Source: Escherichia coli (GTDB lineage Bacteria; Pseudomonadota; Gammaproteobacteria; Enterobacterales; Enterobacteriaceae). Taken from it: DNA of 64,000 nt. This document shows positions 17,232 through 54,188 of this stretch, in pieces. A model generated the notes under the pieces. The model saw only the letters and a list, made by a program, of their open reading frames with translations, made no database searches and was not told the DNA's origin. Where the stretch lies: the NCBI RefSeq assembly GCF_003334355.1, contig NZ_QOWP01000006.1. One strand, written 5' to 3'. The translations under genes and the position numbers were made by a program. Each line of letters starts with the position of its first letter. Position 1 is the stretch's first letter.

Positions 17232-18239
17232 TCATTGATAATCGACGCGTAAATACCCCAGCGCGCTAAACGGCCCCTCGGTCGGTTTTTGACCGGTAAT
17301 ACTGATAGGCCAGGCGCGAAGTGTGACATTGGCTGCCGCAGCTGCATCCAGACGGAAAGGAATAACGCTATTGAGATCGTTAGGCGTAATCGGCGTATCG
17401 TTCTGATCGGCGACAATAAAACCTAAATCCTGATTGTCCGACACCATCGCCTGACCAGAAACGGCACTGGCTTCCAGACGCATTGTTAAATAAGCCTGCG
17501 CAGCAACATTCGTACATTTGACCGCAATGCTCTTGGTTTGCGGCATGACACCAGCAGGTCGATTACCCGGCCCTGCCGCACTAAATAACGATGCGCCGAT
17601 ATCACCAAAATCAAATTCAACAATCTGCCCGGCATTTAATTCGCAGTTTTGCGGTACTTCAACCCGGCCACCAAAACTAATGGTATAAACAGGTGTAACC
17701 AACGGATCGTAAGGCGTTGATGTCACATACACGGTAAACATCACCTGTCTGGGGATCTCCACCATGTTAATAAAGGGACGAATAACCTTTAAACGAAATA
17801 TTAAACGAGAATCCATCACCCCGAATAGAAGGTTTTGCGAAACGTTAGGATCTGTTCCCATCCGAATATAATTTTGCGGGGGGAACTGAATATCCATAAC
17901 ACTATCAACCAGACTCATCGCACCTAATAGATAATCATGTAATTGCATATATTTATAATTATCGATAGTTTCCTGAACAATAAAGTTGGTGACATAACTA
18001 CGGTATGTATAATTCACCAGCGTGCCGGGTGGACAAATTGCTGACACACCTACCCAGCCGGATTTTTCCGGTAAAACAACAATCTGCCCTGGCTGGTTAT
18101 TGGTGCTATTAAAGACATTTGAGAGATCATAGTGTTCATCTTCTGCTACGCCAGTACTATTTGCACAAACAGTAGCCCAGGATATGTTTGTTAACCACAA
18201 ACATGCCATCGCCAATAATAATCTGCAGATTATCTTCAT
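17232..18239 (-). CDS. sfmH: SfmH fimbrial adhesin-like protein
   Basis: 335-aa ORF with signal peptide, in sfm operon position. Confidence 0.75.
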   Translation of the reverse strand: MKIICRLLLAMACLWLTNISWATVCANSTGVAEDEHYDLSNVFNSTNNQPGQIVVLPEKSGWVGVSAICPPGTLVNYTYRSYVTNFIVQETIDNYKYMQLHDYLLGAMSLVDSVMDIQFPPQNYIRMGTDPNVSQNLLFGVMDSRLIFRLKVIRPFINMVEIPRQVMFTVYVTSTPYDPLVTPVYTISFGGRVEVPQNCELNAGQIVEFDFGDIGASLFSAAGPGNRPAGVMPQTKSIAVKCTNVAAQAYLTMRLEASAVSGQAMVSDNQDLGFIVADQNDTPITPNDLNSVIPFRLDAAAAANVTLRAWPISITGQKPTEGPFSALGYLRVDYQ

Positions 18240-48288: not shown

Positions 48289-49215
48289 ATGTTCGATCCA
48301 GAAACCTTGCGGACTTTCATTGCGGTTGCTGAAACAGGAAGTTTTTCAAAAGCGGCAGAACGATTATGTAAAACCACGGCGACGATCAGTTATCGCATTA
48401 AACTTCTGGAAGAGAATACCGGAGTAGCGCTGTTTTTCCGTACGACTCGCAGCGTGACGTTGACAGCGGCTGGCGAGCATCTACTTTCCCAGGCCAGAGA
48501 CTGGCTGAGCTGGCTGGAAAGTATGCCAAGCGAGCTGCAACAGGTGAATGATGGCGTGGAACGCCAGGTGAATATTGTCATCAACAACCTGCTCTACAAC
48601 CCCCAGGCCGTCGCCCAGTTGCTGGCGTGGCTGAATGAGCGTTACCCCTTTACCCAGTTTCACATCTCCCGACAAATCTATATGGGCGTCTGGGACTCGA
48701 TATTGTACGAAGGTTTTTCGCTGGCTATCGGCGTCACGGGAACTGAGGCGCTGGCAAATACCTTTAGTCTTGATCCCTTAGGATCGGTGCAATGGCGCTT
48801 TGTCATGGCGGCGGATCATCCGCTGGCGAACGTTGAAGAGCCGCTAACAGAAGCGCAGTTGCGGCGCTTTCCGGCGGTCAATATTGAAGACAGCGCCCGC
48901 ACCTTAACCAAACGCGTCGCCTGGCGATTGCCAGGGCAAAAAGAGATTATTGTTCCCGATATGGAAACGAAAATCGCCGCCCATCTGGCGGGCGTTGGCA
49001 TTGGTTTTTTGCCAAAATCGCTTTGCCAGTCAATGATCGATAATCAACAACTGGTCAGCCGGGTAATCCCAACGATGCGCCCTCCTTCGCCATTGAGTCT
49101 GGCATGGCGCAAATTTGGCAGCGGCAAAGCGGTAGAAGATATTGTGACCTTGTTTACCCAGCGCAGGCCGGAAATCAGCGGATTTTTAGAAATTTTCGGC
49201 AACCCACGCAGTTAA
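48289..49215 (+). CDS. allS: LysR-family activator of allD operon
   Basis: 308 aa LysR-type HTH N-terminus. Confidence 0.85.
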
Positions 49216-49268
49216 AAATCAAGTTTCCTTGCGCGTTGGCGCGTAAAATAGCGCGCAAGCTGATTTGA

Positions 49269-50378
<1,110 letters not shown>

Positions 50379-50441
50379 TGGGCGGTATTCTGAAACGGCG
50401 ATTGTCGTGAGAACAGAATGGTTGCACCAGAATACAGATAT

Positions 50442-50471
50442 AAAAAAACCGACATGACAGTCGGTTTTTTT
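50442..50471. terminator. bidirectional Rho-independent terminator (mnmH on plus; candidate antisense RNA on minus)
   Basis: AAAAAAACCGACATGACAGTCGGTTTTTTT: 5-bp GC stem flanked by A7 and T7. Confidence 0.8.
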
Positions 50472-50529
50472 ATTTTTTCCGCCCAAGACTTGGTGGTTCC
50501 GGGCAGAAATGAAACAGTCCTCATCTAGC
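50445..50529 (-). ncRNA. candidate antitoxin sRNA of a type I TA pair
   Basis: Minus-strand promoter TTGAAT-17 bp-TATAAT (plus coords 50564-50536); predicted 5' end GCUAGAUGAGGACUG is complementary to plus-strand 50701-50716; ends at terminator 50442-50471. Confidence 0.55.
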
Positions 50530-50535
50530 AAGTGA

Positions 50536-50564
50536 ATTATAAGTCAGGATGCCTACATATTCAA
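50536..50564 (-). promoter_or_regulatory. sigma70-type promoter for the candidate antisense sRNA
   Basis: Minus strand: -35 TTGAAT, 17-bp spacer, consensus -10 TATAAT. Confidence 0.55.
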
Positions 50565-50680
50565 ACAGCTATGTTGGCGATACAATCCCGACGCTAGTAG
50601 TGATACTGCCTCAAGGGATTACCGCAGTGCGGAAAAGTACTTTTAAGTCCTGGTCAGGATACAGGTGGTGCTGATTCTGG

Positions 50681-50689
50681 TGCTCTAAT
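50681..50689 (+). promoter_or_regulatory. extended -10 element (TGcTCTAAT), candidate toxin mRNA promoter
   Basis: TG dinucleotide one base upstream of TCTAAT; no good -35; places the mRNA 5' end just before the repeat at 50701. Confidence 0.35.
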
Positions 50690-50789
50690 TTGGAGAGAGG
50701 CAGTCCTCATCTAGCACATGAAGAAAATCATAGTTACAGGCAACGTAAGGGTAAGCTGTGATTGTCTTTCTCCCTTAAGGGAGCAACGG

Positions 50790-50873
50790 ATGAAAACTTT
50801 TCTCGATAAAGTTCTCATCGTTCTTAAGGCGCTAATCGCGCTGCTGGAACTGATCCGTCAGTTTATTGAATAA
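50790..50873 (+). CDS. 27-aa hydrophobic single-helix peptide, candidate type I toxin (TisB/DinQ-like)
   Basis: MKTFLDKVLIVLKALIALLELIRQFIE; SD GGGAG 6 nt upstream; in-frame upstream ATG at 50718 would give 51 aa; core LIALLELIR recalled as shared with DinQ. Confidence 0.6.
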   Translation: MKTFLDKVLIVLKALIALLELIRQFIE

Positions 50874-50891
50874 CTGAGGAAACGTAGCTAA

Positions 50892-50919
50892 GGCCGAAGG
50901 TTTACCACCTTCGGTCTTT
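50892..50919 (+). terminator. hairpin downstream of the small toxin ORF
   Basis: GGCCGAAGGT-TTACC-ACCTTCGGTC stem-loop followed by short TCTTT. Confidence 0.45.
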
Positions 50920-50945
50920 AAAAAAACCGACATGACAGTTGGTTT
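50920..50945. repeat. second, slightly degenerate copy of the 50442-50471 terminator sequence
   Basis: AAAAAAACCGACATGACAGTTGGTTT, 25/26 identical to AAAAAAACCGACATGACAGTCGGTTT at 50442-50467. Confidence 0.8.
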
Positions 50946-50976
50946 CATATTTATTGCCAAAATGCACACTGTTCAT

Positions 50977-51075
<99 letters not shown>

Positions 51076-51090
51076 ATCTAACACCTGTCA

Positions 51091-53505
51091 TCACCCCGCA
51101 AACTGCCTGAACAGCGCCTTACCCTTAACCAGTCTCGCGCCCAGCCAGCCGCCGAAAAGCGACAGCAGCAGCGCACCGCTGCACGGCAGAACAATCCACA
51201 ATCGCCAGTCTGGCTCCCACGGGAAATCAAACACTTTCGCCTGCAACACTGCCAGTGCCGTTTCCGCACCAATTGCGGCCACCAGGCCGGAAACAAACCC
51301 AAGCATGGCGAACTCACACCACAATGTCGTGCGCAGCAGTTTTTTCCCCGCACCGAGTGTGCGCCATACCACCAGCTCCTGATGACGCTGGCGCATTCCC
51401 ACCTGCACCTGTGCCAGCAACAGCAACATACCGCAGGCGGTGACCAGCACCACCATCACCTCCAGCGCCCGACTTACCTGCTCCAGCACCTGACCGACCT
51501 GTTTTAAAATCGCGCCAATATCTAACAGGCTAATGGTCGGGAACTGGCGGTTGAGTTGCGTCAACATGCCGTTGCCATTCTCCCAGCGGAAACTGGTAAG
51601 CCAGCTCTGCGGTTGCCCGTCTAATGCCCCTTCCGGGAAAATAAAATAGAAATTAGGCCGCAGACTTTCCCAGTCCACTTTGCGCAGGCTGGTCACTTTA
51701 GCGCGGAACTCCTGGGTATCGCCCATAAAAGTCACGGTATCACCGAGGGCAACGTTTAAGCGTTTCGCCAGCCCCTCTTCCATCGACACTTCATCGGCTT
51801 TTGGCGGCCAGTTACCGGCGACAATCGGATTATGATCGGGCCGCGTATTTTGCCAGGTAAGATTGAGTTCGCGATTAAGCGCCTCATCTTCATTACCTTC
51901 TGTCGGCTTATCGTTAATCGCCGTCAGCCGCGCCCGCACTACCGGATAAAATGATTCCGGGACTATATGATGTTCCGCGAGGAACGCTTTTAGCGGTGCT
52001 ACCTGTTCTGTGGCGATGTTAATTAAAAAGTAGTTCGGGCTTTCTGGCGGTAGCTGCTGCTGCCAGCGGTCGAGCAGATCGCCACGCAATACCAGCAACA
52101 GCGCCAGCAGCATAAAGGAGAGCGAAAATGCCGAAAGCTGACTTAACGTTGACCACGGCTGACGTAACAGGCGGCTAACCGCCAGGCGCAGAGGCAGCGA
52201 TTTCAGCGTCATGCGGCGAAGTACATTCAGCAGCATCCAGCCCAGCACACCGCACAGCAAAGCCAGTACTACCGCGCCCGCCAGCACCGCCCAAAGCAGC
52301 ATGCTGCCACCCATTAATCCGGCGAGCAGCAGCACAACCACCACACTGACAATCGGCAGATAAAACTTCAGCGGCCAGACGTTCGCTACCACATCATTAC
52401 GTAATACGCGTAAAGGCTGCGTTGCCAGCAACAAGCGATATGGTCGTAGCCCCACCAGCAGCGAGATGACCGTCATGGTGCCAAGCGCCCACAGCCACGG
52501 CCAGAGGCTGGCTGGCGGTAGTGCAGCAGGCAGAACGGGCTTGAGCAGCACCATCAACACGTTTTCGAACAACAGACCTATGGCCCCACCGGTAACGGCT
52601 GAAAGCGTCAGCACCATCAACCACTGACCGACGATTAGCTTACGCAGTTGCGCTCGCCCTGCCCCCAGCGTTTTGAGGATCGCCACCAGATCGTAGCGAC
52701 TGCGACAGTAATGATTCATCGCTACCGCCACCGCTGCCACTGCCAGCAGCAAGGTCAGAAGCGCCGAAAGCAGCAGGAACTGTTGCGAGCGTTCCATCGA
52801 TCGCCCCAGCGCGCCTTCGTCCTGTTCCAGACCGTACCAGCGTTGTTCGGGTTTAAGCTGAGGTAACAACCATTTCTCATAGCCGTCGAGCTGGTTCTCG
52901 TTGCCGCCGAATTTATAACGCCAGGTGACCCGACTCCCCGGCTGCACGGCTCCGGTTTTATCGACATCCGCCAGATTCATCATCAGACGCGGAGCCATCT
53001 GGAAGGGGTTAAAACCGGAATCCGGTTCCTGAATCACTTCTCCGGCAATCCGCAAGGTGGCATCGCCCACGTCAATGGTGTCGCCCGTTTTCAGGTTAAG
53101 CAGTGCCATCAGGCGTGGGGCCAGCAATACGCTGCCCGCCTGCGGTTTCAGGCCAGGGGGATTAGTTTGCAGATCGCCATACATCGGGTAGATATCATCC
53201 ACCGCTTTGACGTTCGCCAGCTGCGGTGTGTCGCCTGCAAAGGTCATTGTGGCGAAAGTCAGCTGCTTGCCGACTTTCAGGCCGCGCTTTTGCGCTTCCT
53301 CCAGCCACGCTTGCGGCACTTCGCGTGAACTGCGCAACGCCCGATCGCCCGCCATAAACTCACGGCTTTGCTGGCTTAAGCCCTTCTCCATGCGATCGCT
53401 GATATTGCCCAGCGCCAGCACGCAGGCCACCGCCAGGCTTAGCGCCAGCCAGACAATTAATAGCGACGGCGAACGCCATTCGCGCCAGAACCAACGTGCA
53501 ATCAT
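51091..53505 (-). CDS. ybbP: ABC-type transporter permease (FtsX-like, two domains) YbbP
   Basis: 804-aa membrane ORF overlapping ybbA. Confidence 0.85.
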   Translation of the reverse strand: MIARWFWREWRSPSLLIVWLALSLAVACVLALGNISDRMEKGLSQQSREFMAGDRALRSSREVPQAWLEEAQKRGLKVGKQLTFATMTFAGDTPQLANVKAVDDIYPMYGDLQTNPPGLKPQAGSVLLAPRLMALLNLKTGDTIDVGDATLRIAGEVIQEPDSGFNPFQMAPRLMMNLADVDKTGAVQPGSRVTWRYKFGGNENQLDGYEKWLLPQLKPEQRWYGLEQDEGALGRSMERSQQFLLLSALLTLLLAVAAVAVAMNHYCRSRYDLVAILKTLGAGRAQLRKLIVGQWLMVLTLSAVTGGAIGLLFENVLMVLLKPVLPAALPPASLWPWLWALGTMTVISLLVGLRPYRLLLATQPLRVLRNDVVANVWPLKFYLPIVSVVVVLLLAGLMGGSMLLWAVLAGAVVLALLCGVLGWMLLNVLRRMTLKSLPLRLAVSRLLRQPWSTLSQLSAFSLSFMLLALLLVLRGDLLDRWQQQLPPESPNYFLINIATEQVAPLKAFLAEHHIVPESFYPVVRARLTAINDKPTEGNEDEALNRELNLTWQNTRPDHNPIVAGNWPPKADEVSMEEGLAKRLNVALGDTVTFMGDTQEFRAKVTSLRKVDWESLRPNFYFIFPEGALDGQPQSWLTSFRWENGNGMLTQLNRQFPTISLLDIGAILKQVGQVLEQVSRALEVMVVLVTACGMLLLLAQVQVGMRQRHQELVVWRTLGAGKKLLRTTLWCEFAMLGFVSGLVAAIGAETALAVLQAKVFDFPWEPDWRLWIVLPCSGALLLSLFGGWLGARLVKGKALFRQFAG

Positions 53506-54188
53506 GCTTCCTCCTGCAACTGCCCGTTCACCAGCCGTAAGCAGCGGTCGCAGCGTGCCGCCAGTTGCAGGTCGTGGGTCACCATAATCAACGTGGTGCC
53601 ATGTTCACGGTTGAGGGAAAACAGCAGGTCGGCAATTTTATCGCCCGTCTGGCGGTCAAGGTTGCCGGTGGGTTCGTCGGCAAACAGCACATCAGGTCGA
53701 CCATTAAAGGCTCGTGCCAGCGCCACTCGTTGCTGTTCACCGCCGGAAAGCTGTGCCGGAAGATGATCCAGACGTTTACCCAGCCCTAACTGTTCGAGCA
53801 ACGCTTTCGCCCCGTTACGACTTTCCGCGCTACTCTCACCGCGCAGCAGAGCCGGAAGCTCGACGTTTTCCAGCGCGTTAAGGGTAGGAATTAACATAAA
53901 TGACTGAAAAACAAAGCCGACGTGCTTCGCGCGCAACTTTGCCCGCGCTTCTTCGTCCATATTATGTAGCGGTTGTCCCACCAGACTCACTTCGCCACTG
54001 CTGCCGTCATCAAGCCCGGCGAGGATCGCCAGCAAGGTTGACTTACCCGATCCCGACTCGCCCACCAGTGCGATGGTCTCGCCACGTTTGACAACCAGCT
54101 CAACTCCGGTGAGGATGGAGAGTTCATGCTCCCCCTGACCGACGGACTTCTTAAGATGATGAACTTCAACAATGTTTTCCGCTGGCAT
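53502..54188 (-). CDS. ybbA: ABC transporter ATP-binding protein YbbA
   Basis: 228 aa, Walker A GESGSGKST, signature LSGGEQQRVALA. Confidence 0.9.
   Translation of the reverse strand: MPAENIVEVHHLKKSVGQGEHELSILTGVELVVKRGETIALVGESGSGKSTLLAILAGLDDGSSGEVSLVGQPLHNMDEEARAKLRAKHVGFVFQSFMLIPTLNALENVELPALLRGESSAESRNGAKALLEQLGLGKRLDHLPAQLSGGEQQRVALARAFNGRPDVLFADEPTGNLDRQTGDKIADLLFSLNREHGTTLIMVTHDLQLAARCDRCLRLVNGQLQEEA

What the first reader, a model, noticed from the sequence alone, without database searches (positions are those of the whole stretch)
50441..50950. Candidate type I toxin-antitoxin module (TisB/DinQ-like 27-aa peptide plus divergent antisense sRNA) between mnmH and ybbP
Seen directly: (a) an SD-preceded ORF at 50790-50873 encoding MKTFLDKVLIVLKALIALLELIRQFIE, a single amphipathic helix; (b) a 16-nt perfect direct repeat CAGTCCTCATCTAGCA at 50515-50530 and 50701-50716 (20/22 over the extended match); (c) a minus-strand promoter (-35 TTGAAT, 17 bp, -10 TATAAT) that starts an RNA at about 50529 whose first 15-16 nt are exactly complementary to the second repeat, which sits at the 5' end of the peptide mRNA and covers an in-frame upstream ATG at 50718; (d) that RNA ends about 85 nt later at a canonical terminator. 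The architecture mirrors tisB/istR-1, dinQ/agrB and zorO/orzO. The peptide resembles DinQ as I recall it (MIDKAIIVLGALIALLELIRFLLQLLN). No LexA box is visible, so regulation may differ. K-12 carries RhsD at this position, so this module is probably unannotated in many genomes; I cannot verify novelty here.
Basis: partly seen in the sequence, partly recalled or inferred. Interest (0 to 1): 0.85.

Follow-up and report, generated by a model that had tools for sequence, protein, structure and literature searches.

The report
A second DinQ/AgrB toxin-antitoxin locus

Summary
The minus-strand RNA (50441-50529) matches Rfam AgrB above its gathering score. The 27-aa peptide passes NCBIfam's DinQ model. 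RefSeq already annotates this CDS as "dinQ" in the matching E. coli genomes I inspected. The whole module is collinear with the K-12 agrA-dinQ locus, and the inferred 329-nt toxin mRNA fits the conserved DinQ-family 5'-UTR fold. Across 11 family loci, the sRNA 5' end, its mRNA target and the mRNA's own 5' end co-vary, and this locus carries its own variant (GCUAG/CUAGC). About 1,300 of 5,426 complete E. coli genomes carry the module, always alongside canonical dinQ. It differs from dinQ proper in four ways: no LexA box, a different genomic site (K-12 has rhsD there), a distinct antisense sequence predicted not to cross-react with AgrB, and a shorter perfect match (16 nt; about 24 bp counting G-U pairs). 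The dinQ-like (dql) family was named in 2016, and a plasmid DqlB/AgrB pair was validated in 2025. Verdict: real, correctly interpreted, already known as a kind and already in databases. This paralog itself appears experimentally unstudied. The sRNA carries no annotation in the three module-bearing RefSeq records inspected. Low novelty.

The parts
50399..50963 (.). Whole inserted module (about 565 bp) relative to an empty mnmH-ybbP site
   Evidence: The empty-site genome L003 reads ...gtgatgggggattctg|tgcacgctgttcatgcc.... The window carries the extra segment between 'attctg' and 'tgcac'.
50441..50529 (-). AgrB-like antitoxin sRNA, 89 nt
   Evidence: Full-length Rfam RF02891 AgrB match (model 1-84) at 50440-50528(-), 53.6 bits against gathering score 40, E=1.7e-7. 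Fold z-score -5.0.
50536..50564 (-). sRNA promoter: -35 TTGAAT, 17-bp spacer, -10 TATAAT
   Evidence: Promoter scan, 10 of 12 matches; the only site reported in the 800-bp region.
50440..50473 (.). Bidirectional intrinsic terminator: ends the sRNA and probably also mnmH
   Evidence: 14-bp perfect inverted repeat followed by T-runs on both strands.
50506..50529 (-). Antisense region of the sRNA: nt 1-15 are perfect Watson-Crick; pairing continues through nt 24 with G-U pairs and one mismatch
   Evidence: In-register pair count: positions 1-19 paired, mismatch at 20, positions 21-24 paired. RNAduplex result.
50581..50586 (+). Inferred -10 (TACAAT) of the toxin mRNA promoter; its weak -35 overlaps the sRNA -35 on the other strand
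   Evidence: All 13 family mRNAs extracted carry a TATAAT-like hexamer upstream of a G start; it lies six nt upstream in most of them, including this one. Inferred by homology; the promoter scan did not call it.
50593..50921 (+). Toxin mRNA, about 329 nt (K-12 dinQ: 331 nt)
   Evidence: Alignment of 11 family mRNAs has many invariant columns. The window keeps 70 of 83 consensus base pairs. Fold z-score -4.9.
50593..50612 (+). mRNA 5' 'lock' (a + sequence 1): GCUAG...CUGCCUC pairs with 50697-50715 and occludes the sRNA site
   Evidence: MFE and centroid structures. The a/a' pair C2-G137 is a compensatory change relative to U-A in the other 10 loci.
50654..50680 (+). SL2 hairpin with invariant apical loop GUGGUG (50665-50670)
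50692..50716 (+). sRNA target; includes 'sequence 2' GGAGAGAGG (50692-50700) and the perfect 16-nt repeat (50701-50716)
50770..50783 (+). Shine-Dalgarno hairpin CUCCC-UUAA-GGGAG (sequences 3:4); sequence 3 can alternatively pair with sequence 2
   Evidence: 6/6 consensus pairs kept. The 2:3 duplex forms in the MFE of the 5'-truncated RNA.
50790..50873 (+). Toxin ORF, 27 aa, DinQ family
   Evidence: NF041472 toxin_DinQ 40.9 bits against cut-off 30. PGAP 'dinQ' WP_349808740.1 at the identical position in ATCC 8739.
50890..50921 (+). Toxin mRNA terminator stem-loop followed by UUUAA
   Evidence: 12-nt inverted repeat. The terminator stem co-varies across the family.
50919..50958 (.). Degenerate second copy of the sRNA terminator: probable remnant of a second, downstream agr gene, cut by the insert boundary
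   Evidence: 83% identical over 40 nt to 50441-50480. Citrobacter amalonaticus L024 has a complete AgrB copy downstream of its toxin.

Best explanation
This is a chromosomal paralog of the E. coli dinQ-agrB type I toxin-antitoxin system, that is, a dinQ-like ('dql') locus. A roughly 329-nt mRNA starting near 50593 encodes a 27-aa membrane-active helical peptide. In the primary transcript, the mRNA's own 5' end (GCUAG...CUGCCUC) pairs with 50697-50715 and the Shine-Dalgarno sequence sits in a small hairpin, so the transcript is neither translated nor open to the antisense RNA. Removal of the 5' end, by analogy with the +44 processing of dinQ, would free 'sequence 2' (GGAGAGAGG) to pair with 'sequence 3' and open the ribosome-binding site. 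The divergently transcribed 89-nt AgrB-like sRNA has the same 5' sequence as the mRNA 5' end. It binds the same site (15-16 perfect bp, about 24 bp counting G-U pairs), restores the closed state and probably triggers RNase III cleavage, keeping the toxin off. Unlike dinQ proper it has no LexA operator, so it is probably not SOS-induced. Its antisense sequence differs enough from AgrB that the two systems in one cell should be largely independent. What is shown here: homology, the sequence elements, their complementarity, family-wide co-variation and the distribution. What is inferred from relatives: transcription, processing, toxicity and repression.
For: - Profile matches: Rfam AgrB above gathering score on the predicted sRNA and NCBIfam DinQ above its cut-off.
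- Existing annotation: RefSeq names the CDS dinQ.
- Collinear alignment with K-12 agrA-dinQ, from the sRNA terminator to the toxin terminator.
- mRNA length and fold: family mRNAs are 328-371 nt and share the same -10/+1 geometry. The consensus fold recovers the published S1, SL2, SL4 and SD-hairpin elements. 25 of its 83 pairs show compensatory changes, and the window keeps 70/83, including SD hairpin 6/6, SL2 7/7 and SL4 9/9.
- sRNA-target co-variation: in 11 loci, sRNA nt 1-19 pair with the target in nearly every locus while the sequence differs. There are up to 5 standard pair types per position, and only one unpaired cell among positions 1-19. Cognate pairs have on average 30/34 positions paired against 24.2 for non-cognate pairs.
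- Duplex energies: cognate mean -64 against non-cognate -40.5 kcal/mol. For the window, cognate -52.7 against -37.9 with K-12 AgrB; the window sRNA scores -39.3 on K-12 dinQ.
- Shared 5' pentamer: the mRNA and the sRNA begin with the same five bases in 10 of 11 loci, and the one exception keeps the pair as G-U. The pentamer is GCUAG here and GUUAG, GUCUA or GUUGG elsewhere.
- Structure: both RNAs fold far better than shuffles, z about -5.
- Conservation: the module is at least 99% identical in about 1,250 genomes. It is 99.3% identical to the copy in Escherichia sp. E1V33, where the flanking mnmH is only 94.8%.
- Experimental precedent in relatives: DinQ toxicity, AgrB repression, +44 activation and RNase III cleavage (PMC3567139, PMC5066626); DqlB/agrB killing and rescue on pOXA-48 (PMC12365149).
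Against: - No expression or phenotype data for this locus were found; a sequence-string search of the paper library found nothing.
- Perfect complementarity is only 16 nt, against 25 in K-12. The sRNA covers 'sequence 2' only through G-U-rich pairing, and its cognate duplex energy is the second weakest of the 11.
- Thermodynamic modelling does not show the ribosome-binding site opening on 5' truncation: opening cost 15.1 to 14.6 to 15.3 kcal/mol for full-length, truncated, and truncated with the sRNA site blocked. The same model reproduces the experimentally established K-12 switch only weakly (12.5, 11.0, 13.2), so the test has little power.
- The toxin promoter has a poor -35 and was not called by the promoter scan.
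- A few isolates carry an IS in the toxin promoter or a 108-bp deletion of SD and start codon, so the toxin is dispensable.
- sRNA-target 'co-variation' could partly reflect repeated duplication or gene conversion rather than selection for pairing.
Confidence: 0.85

Rival explanations
1. The module is a decaying, no longer functional relic of a dinQ-like locus that is merely hitch-hiking in a variable intergenic hotspot.
For: Complementarity is shorter than in most relatives. There is a truncated second agr copy at 50919-50958. IS-disrupted and deleted alleles exist. The site is occupied by other cargo, or is empty, in about 75% of genomes.
Against: The ORF, SD hairpin, both terminators, the sRNA promoter and the pairing site are all intact. 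The a/a' pair carries a compensatory change. About 1,250 genomes are at least 99% identical. The module is less diverged than the neighbouring coding genes in a different Escherichia lineage, 99.3% against 94.8%.
Confidence: 0.08
2. The sRNA's main role is in trans on other targets, for example cross-regulating canonical dinQ or unrelated mRNAs, and the adjacent peptide gene is secondary.
For: All carrier genomes also have canonical dinQ. The sRNA shares UAGAU..A..ACU with AgrA/AgrB, and K-12 AgrA has no known target.
Against: The predicted duplex with K-12 dinQ is 13 kcal/mol weaker than with the cognate target. Cognate pairs are the strongest, or tied for strongest, in every row of the 11x11 matrix. 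The longest perfect match in the 64-kb window is the adjacent UTR.
Confidence: 0.05
3. The real product is the 51-aa protein that starts at ATG 50718, not the 27-aa peptide.
For: The frame is open from 50718. Several database entries record the 51-aa form.
Against: No Shine-Dalgarno sequence precedes 50718. In relatives the in-frame upstream extension is cut by stops at different places (1 to about 19 codons) and is conserved only where the RNA elements are. The region forms the conserved, co-varying SL4 hairpin. For dinQ itself only the 27-aa peptide V is made and is sufficient for toxicity (PMC3567139). Current PGAP calls the 27-aa form.
Confidence: 0.02

Closest known systems
dinQ-agrA/agrB of E. 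coli K-12 (arsR-gor intergenic region)
   Same: Divergent sRNA and toxin mRNA with no overlap. The sRNA matches the AgrB covariance model. The mRNA is about 330 nt with the same S1 lock, SL2, SL4, SD hairpin and terminator. The sRNA 5' end pairs inside the 5' UTR upstream of the RBS. The peptide is 27 aa and shares the core IVL-ALIALLELIR (15 identical residues).
   Different: - Site: mnmH-ybbP rather than arsR-gor.
- No LexA operator: PWM 5.1 bits against 23.3.
- ATG rather than GUG start.
- Three extra N-terminal and four fewer C-terminal residues; Lys where DinQ has Gly10.
- One complete sRNA gene plus a terminator remnant, instead of agrA + agrB.
- 16 perfect nt against 25.
- A different antisense sequence, predicted to be orthogonal.
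dql (dinQ-like) genes of Enterobacteriaceae (Kristiansen et al. 2016, PMC5066626); 26-27-aa members such as Photorhabdus khanii MGAFIDKAIMVLKALIALLELIRTLFA and plasmid copies in Citrobacter, Erwinia and Serratia
   Same: The peptide subtype matches: an N-terminal MxxF(I/L)DK, K/R in the helix, 17/27 residues identical to the Photorhabdus peptide. Each has its own AgrB-like sRNA with locus-specific complementarity, and none has a LexA box. The paper states that some strains carry dql genes together with dinQ.
   Different: I could not check whether this exact E. coli locus is among the paper's 14 dql sequences, or whether it is its 'dqlA' class; the figure and supplement are not held. The antisense sequence is unique to this locus.
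DqlB-AgrB of pOXA-48 and other conjugative plasmids (PMC12365149, 2025)
   Same: Same architecture and the same RNA family. It is experimentally shown to kill and to be rescued by its sRNA, which supports function across the wider family.
   Different: DqlB is 31 aa with an inserted AVxAxANA segment. The window peptide scores 24.5 bits on NF041473, below the cut-off of 35. DqlB is plasmid-borne and acts as an addiction module.
tisB-istR-1 and zorO-orzO
   Same: Same general design: a small hydrophobic toxin, a long structured 5' UTR that is inert until processed, and a divergent sRNA pairing upstream of the RBS (PMC5066626).
   Different: No sequence or covariance-model membership. The OrzO-P hit is 24.1 bits against a gathering score of 60, lies on the wrong strand and covers only the terminator. 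No IstR hit appears even at E<=10.

Membership tests
DinQ/AgrB type I toxin-antitoxin family (including dql) | Small hydrophobic single-helix peptide with the DinQ signature | tested here: met
   NF041472 toxin_DinQ 40.9 bits against curated cut-off 30; 15/27 residues identical to DinQ and 17/27 to the Photorhabdus Dql-type peptide.
DinQ/AgrB type I toxin-antitoxin family (including dql) | Divergently transcribed, non-overlapping sRNA with AgrB sequence and structure upstream of the toxin gene | tested here: met
   RF02891 AgrB 53.6 bits against gathering score 40, full-length match at 50440-50528(-); consensus promoter and terminator.
DinQ/AgrB type I toxin-antitoxin family (including dql) | sRNA 5' end complementary to the toxin 5' UTR upstream of the RBS | tested here: met
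   16-nt perfect repeat; 24 bp with one mismatch counting G-U pairs; co-varies across 11 loci; cognate pairs preferred energetically.
DinQ/AgrB type I toxin-antitoxin family (including dql) | About 330-nt mRNA whose 5' UTR has the conserved S1 (a/a' + 1:2), SL2, SL4 and SD-hairpin (3:4) elements, with an alternative 2:3 pairing | tested here: met
   70/83 consensus pairs kept; compensatory C-G at a/a'; SD hairpin 6/6. The 2:3 duplex appears in the fold of the truncated RNA.
DinQ/AgrB type I toxin-antitoxin family (including dql) | Activation by 5' processing and repression by sRNA-induced refolding and RNase III cleavage | tested here: inconclusive
   The opening-energy model gives changes of 1 kcal/mol or less here and only 1.5-2 kcal/mol for the K-12 positive control. 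Experiments are needed.
DinQ/AgrB type I toxin-antitoxin family (including dql) | Peptide is toxic and depolarises the membrane; the sRNA neutralises it | not testable with these tools
   Shown only for DinQ (PMC3567139) and DqlB (PMC12365149).
dinQ proper (ortholog of b4613, 'damage-inducible') | LexA operator in the promoter (SOS induction) | tested here: not met
   No CTG-N10-CAG anywhere in 50300-51100. The best PWM score in the module is 5.1 bits. The K-12 dinQ box, left out of training, scores 23.3; training sites score 13.6-27.4.
dinQ proper (ortholog of b4613, 'damage-inducible') | [quoted passage not shown] | tested here: not met
   The module lies between mnmH and ybbP. Carrier genomes have a second, canonical dinQ elsewhere.
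DqlB (NF041473) | 31-aa peptide passing the DqlB equivalog model | tested here: not met
   24.5 bits against cut-off 35; the peptide lacks the internal insertion seen in DqlB.
zorO-orzO / tisB-istR-1 | sRNA matches the OrzO-P or IstR covariance model | tested here: not met
   OrzO-P 24.1 bits against 60, on the + strand over the terminator only; no IstR hit at E<=10.

The most novel reading that the evidence does not exclude
The paralog may be a functionally distinct DinQ-type system. It would be LexA-independent and respond to a signal other than DNA damage. It would be insulated from AgrB by its own antisense sequence. It would be repressed through a short duplex (16 perfect bp, about 24 bp in all) that only weakly covers 'sequence 2', implying a variant of the published refolding mechanism. 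It may also help stabilise, or compete for, a toxin-cargo hotspot that otherwise holds Rhs or Hcp-effector islands.
Probability: 0.15. Interest if true: 0.45.

Novelty: already known. Interest (0 to 1): 0.18.

Why it matters
The practical value lies in annotation and experimental design. About a quarter of complete E. coli genomes carry two DinQ-type toxins. RefSeq calls both 'damage-inducible DinQ', although this copy has no LexA box. In the three carrier records inspected, its antitoxin sRNA carries no annotation. Studies of SOS-linked persistence, membrane depolarisation or type I toxin redundancy that use non-K-12 strains such as ATCC 8739, HS or O145 should take the extra copy into account. 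The finding does not open a new kind of biology.

Tried and rejected
- LexA control. Exact and one-mismatch core searches, plus a PWM built from LexA boxes I recalled from the literature, found nothing near threshold. The two one-mismatch cores (50532 GTG..CAG and 50553 CTA..CAG) score 3.5 and 5.1 bits.\n- Modelling the processing switch. Unpaired probabilities and opening energies for a series of 5' truncations, with and without the sRNA site blocked, gave effects too small to interpret even for K-12.\n- Checking whether this locus is one of Kristiansen's 14 dql sequences or is in T1TAdb. The supplements are not held and the main text gives no strain names.\n- Literature search for the exact repeat, sRNA and peptide strings: no paper. 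A search for 'dqlA' returned only unrelated hits.\n- Plasmid origin. The only near-identical 'plasmid' hits are megabase-sized records that are really chromosomes. True plasmid relatives are about 70% identical.\n- Within-E. coli co-variation. The copies are too similar (at least 99%) to be informative.\n- Loop-loop contact between SL2 and the sRNA body hairpin. Only ACCA/UGGU is kept across the family, so this could simply be a relic of the duplication.
Full report
**1. Observation**

- The 27-aa ORF (50790-50873, MKTFLDKVLIVLKALIALLELIRQFIE) follows GGGAG by six nt.
- The 16-mer CAGTCCTCATCTAGCA occurs exactly twice in the 64-kb window, at 50515 and 50701. Chance expectation is 0.03 even allowing two mismatches.
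- A near-consensus minus-strand promoter, TTGAAT-17-TATAAT at 50564..50536, is the only promoter-like site in 50300-51100. It points at a start near 50529.
- The RNA would end 89 nt later at a 14-bp stem followed by a U-run.
- That RNA folds far better than shuffles, z = -5.0.

**2. Identity**

The predicted sRNA is a full-length match to Rfam AgrB (RF02891): 53.6 bits against a gathering score of 40. The peptide passes NCBIfam's DinQ equivalog (NF041472): 40.9 bits against 30. It fails the DqlB model: 24.5 bits against 35.

A megablast of the intergenic region against 5,426 complete E. coli genomes finds it at 100% identity in ATCC 8739, HS and many others. In these the CDS is already annotated 'dinQ: damage-inducible type I toxin DinQ' (WP_349808740.1). 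Both the 27-aa and the 51-aa forms are in public protein collections under that name, each on at least 1000 contigs. The three carrier records I inspected list no ncRNA feature for the sRNA.

A local alignment with the K-12 arsR-gor region is collinear from the sRNA terminator through the sRNA, the divergent promoters, the 5' UTR and the ORF to the toxin terminator.

**3. Literature**
- DinQ is a 27-aa inner-membrane peptide. It is toxic and depolarising when over-produced. It is LexA-controlled, translated only from a +44 processed mRNA, and repressed by AgrB (PMC3567139).
- Kristiansen et al. 2016 (PMC5066626) worked out the switch between the 1:2/3:4 pairings (closed) and the 2:3 pairing (open), and the AgrB-induced refolding and RNase III cleavage.
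- The same paper defined a family of dinQ-like (dql) genes, dqlA and dqlB, on chromosomes and plasmids of Enterobacteriaceae. It noted that some strains carry dql together with dinQ.
- A plasmid DqlB/agrB pair was shown to kill and to be rescued in 2025 (PMC12365149).

I could not verify whether this particular locus is among their 14 sequences.

**4. Anatomy by comparison**

I collected relatives from three sources:
- E. coli plasmids;
- one scan of representative genomes with a degenerate pattern over the conserved codons;
- PLSDB.

Most of the enterobacterial loci have one to three AgrB matches next to the toxin.

All 13 toxin mRNAs extracted are 328-371 nt and have a TATAAT-like hexamer upstream of a G start, six nt upstream in most. 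In the window this is TACAAT at 50581-50586 with +1 at 50593, giving 329 nt.

An alignment of 11 of them has many invariant columns. Its consensus fold recovers the published elements. 25 of 83 pairs show compensatory changes. The window keeps 70/83 pairs, including SD hairpin 6/6, SL2 7/7 and SL4 9/9.

In the single-sequence fold, mRNA nt 1-20 pair with 50697-50715. The sRNA site is therefore buried in the primary transcript, and the SD sits in CUCCC-UUAA-GGGAG.

**5. The antisense interaction**

In every locus the sRNA gene and the UTR share a locus-specific direct repeat.

When the loci are put in register, sRNA nt 1-19 pair with the target in nearly all 11 loci (one unpaired cell), with up to five standard pair types per position. 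Cognate pairs average 30/34 paired positions against 24.2 for non-cognate combinations.

The first five bases of the mRNA equal the first five of the sRNA in 10 of 11 loci: GCUAG in the window, GUUAG, GUCUA or GUUGG elsewhere. The one exception keeps the pair as G-U. The cis 'lock' and the trans antitoxin therefore compete for one site.

Duplex energies favour cognate pairs: mean -64 against -40.5 kcal/mol. For the window:
- cognate pair: -52.7
- window target with K-12 AgrB: -37.9
- window sRNA on K-12 dinQ: -39.3

The two systems in one cell are thus predicted to be largely independent.

The window's pairing is at the short end for the family. It has 16 perfect nt against 25 in K-12, and about 24 bp with one mismatch when G-U pairs are counted.

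**6. Differences from dinQ proper**

There is no LexA box.
- No CTG-N10-CAG occurs in the region.
- A PWM built from LexA boxes I recalled from the literature (my own knowledge, with dinQ left out) scores the K-12 dinQ operator at 23.3 bits. The best site in the module scores 5.1. Training sites score 13.6-27.4.
- None of the other dql loci checked has a convincing box either.

The site also differs. K-12 has rhsD there. Other genomes have an empty 140-bp spacer or a tssD-effector pair.

The peptide belongs to the subtype with an MxxF(I/L)DK N-terminus and a Lys/Arg where DinQ has Gly10. Its closest relative found is the Photorhabdus peptide, at 17/27 identical residues.

**7. Distribution and conservation**

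About 1,300 of 5,426 complete E. coli genomes carry the module:
- 1,330 show homology continuing past the mnmH stop codon;
- 1,326 records match at 95% identity or more.

In the carrier records listed, each has exactly one further, weaker match, annotated dinQ, consistent with the canonical gene. Nearly all genomes (5,416 of 5,426) have at least one DinQ-family match.

The copy in Escherichia sp. E1V33 sits at the same site and is 99.3% identical. The flanking genes are less similar: allS 94.3%, mnmH 94.8%, ybbP 97.0%. This fits either constraint or recent transfer.

Rare alleles carry an IS between the toxin -35 and -10, or a 108-bp deletion that removes the SD and start codon.

**8. What remains inferred**

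Transcription, processing, toxicity and repression are all taken from relatives.

My attempt to model the processing switch was uninformative. The opening cost of the RBS changes by 1 kcal/mol or less here and by only 1.5-2 kcal/mol in the K-12 control.

The 51-aa reading is unlikely, for four reasons:
- no SD precedes ATG 50718;
- the upstream extension is not conserved as protein in relatives;
- it overlaps the co-varying SL4 hairpin;
- in dinQ only the 27-aa peptide is made.

**9. Verdict**

It belongs to a described family, and the gene is already named in RefSeq. The residual interest is modest:
- 'damage-inducible' is probably a misnomer for this copy;
- the sRNA carries no annotation in the records inspected;
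- no experimental study of this paralog turned up in the literature I could search.

Interest 0.18; novelty: already known.

Noticed in passing
window 50379-51090 (mnmH-ybbP spacer); L003, L004, L039: The mnmH-ybbP intergenic site is a variable hotspot. It is empty (140 bp) in some E. coli. In others it holds this toxin-antitoxin module, the rhsD cluster (K-12), or a tssD(Hcp)-effector plus a DUF2931 gene. All alternative cargoes are toxin systems. In an evenly spaced sample of 40 genomes: about 25% module, 10% empty-like, 50% K-12-like breakpoint, 10% tssD-like.
   Followed up: partly
window 50919-50958: A degenerate 40-nt copy (83%) of the sRNA terminator lies directly after the toxin terminator and is cut by the insert boundary. 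In Citrobacter amalonaticus (L024) a full AgrB gene lies downstream of the toxin as well as two upstream. This suggests the ancestral element had flanking or tandem agr copies.
   Followed up: partly
window 50665-50670 (mRNA SL2 loop) and 50490-50497 (sRNA body hairpin loop): The SL2 apical loop GUGGUG is invariant in 11 family mRNAs, and the sRNA's internal hairpin loop carries the complementary CCACCA. Only ACCA is kept in all loci. This could be a loop-loop first contact, or just a relic of the duplication that created agr from the UTR. The Kristiansen 2016 text does not mention it.
   Followed up: partly
L017 (Escherichia sp. E1V33) against window 48289-55500: The largely non-coding module is 99.3% identical between lineages whose flanking allS and mnmH genes are only about 94-95% identical. 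This fits either strong constraint or recent lateral replacement of the spacer.
   Followed up: partly
L035 (NZ_OW967178.1) and L036 (NZ_OZ547086.1), equivalent to window 50569/50570 and 50703-50810: Two natural toxin knock-outs. In L035 an IS (integrase-core transposase) is inserted between the -35 and -10 of the toxin promoter. L036 has a 108-bp microhomology deletion that removes the SD and start codon. PGAP still calls the resulting 25-aa remnant 'dinQ'.
   Followed up: yes
window 50971-51053: REP/BIME-type palindromic repeats next to ybbP give sub-threshold Rfam hits (naRNA4, ES036). They make any BLAST query that includes them match every genome dozens of times.
   Followed up: no
window 18155-18174: The best LexA-PWM hit in the whole window is TACTATTTGCACAAACAGTA (14.2 bits, at the bottom of the range of known boxes, with CTA in place of CTG). 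The neighbouring gene was not examined.
   Followed up: no
L025 (Cedecea davisae) about 6370-6745: A DinQ-family toxin (MNAVIDTVIIVLRVLIAFLELIRAFVEKR) has the conserved UTR but no AgrB match and no upstream repeat longer than 7 nt. RybB lies just downstream. This may be an orphan toxin, or one with a diverged antitoxin.
   Followed up: no
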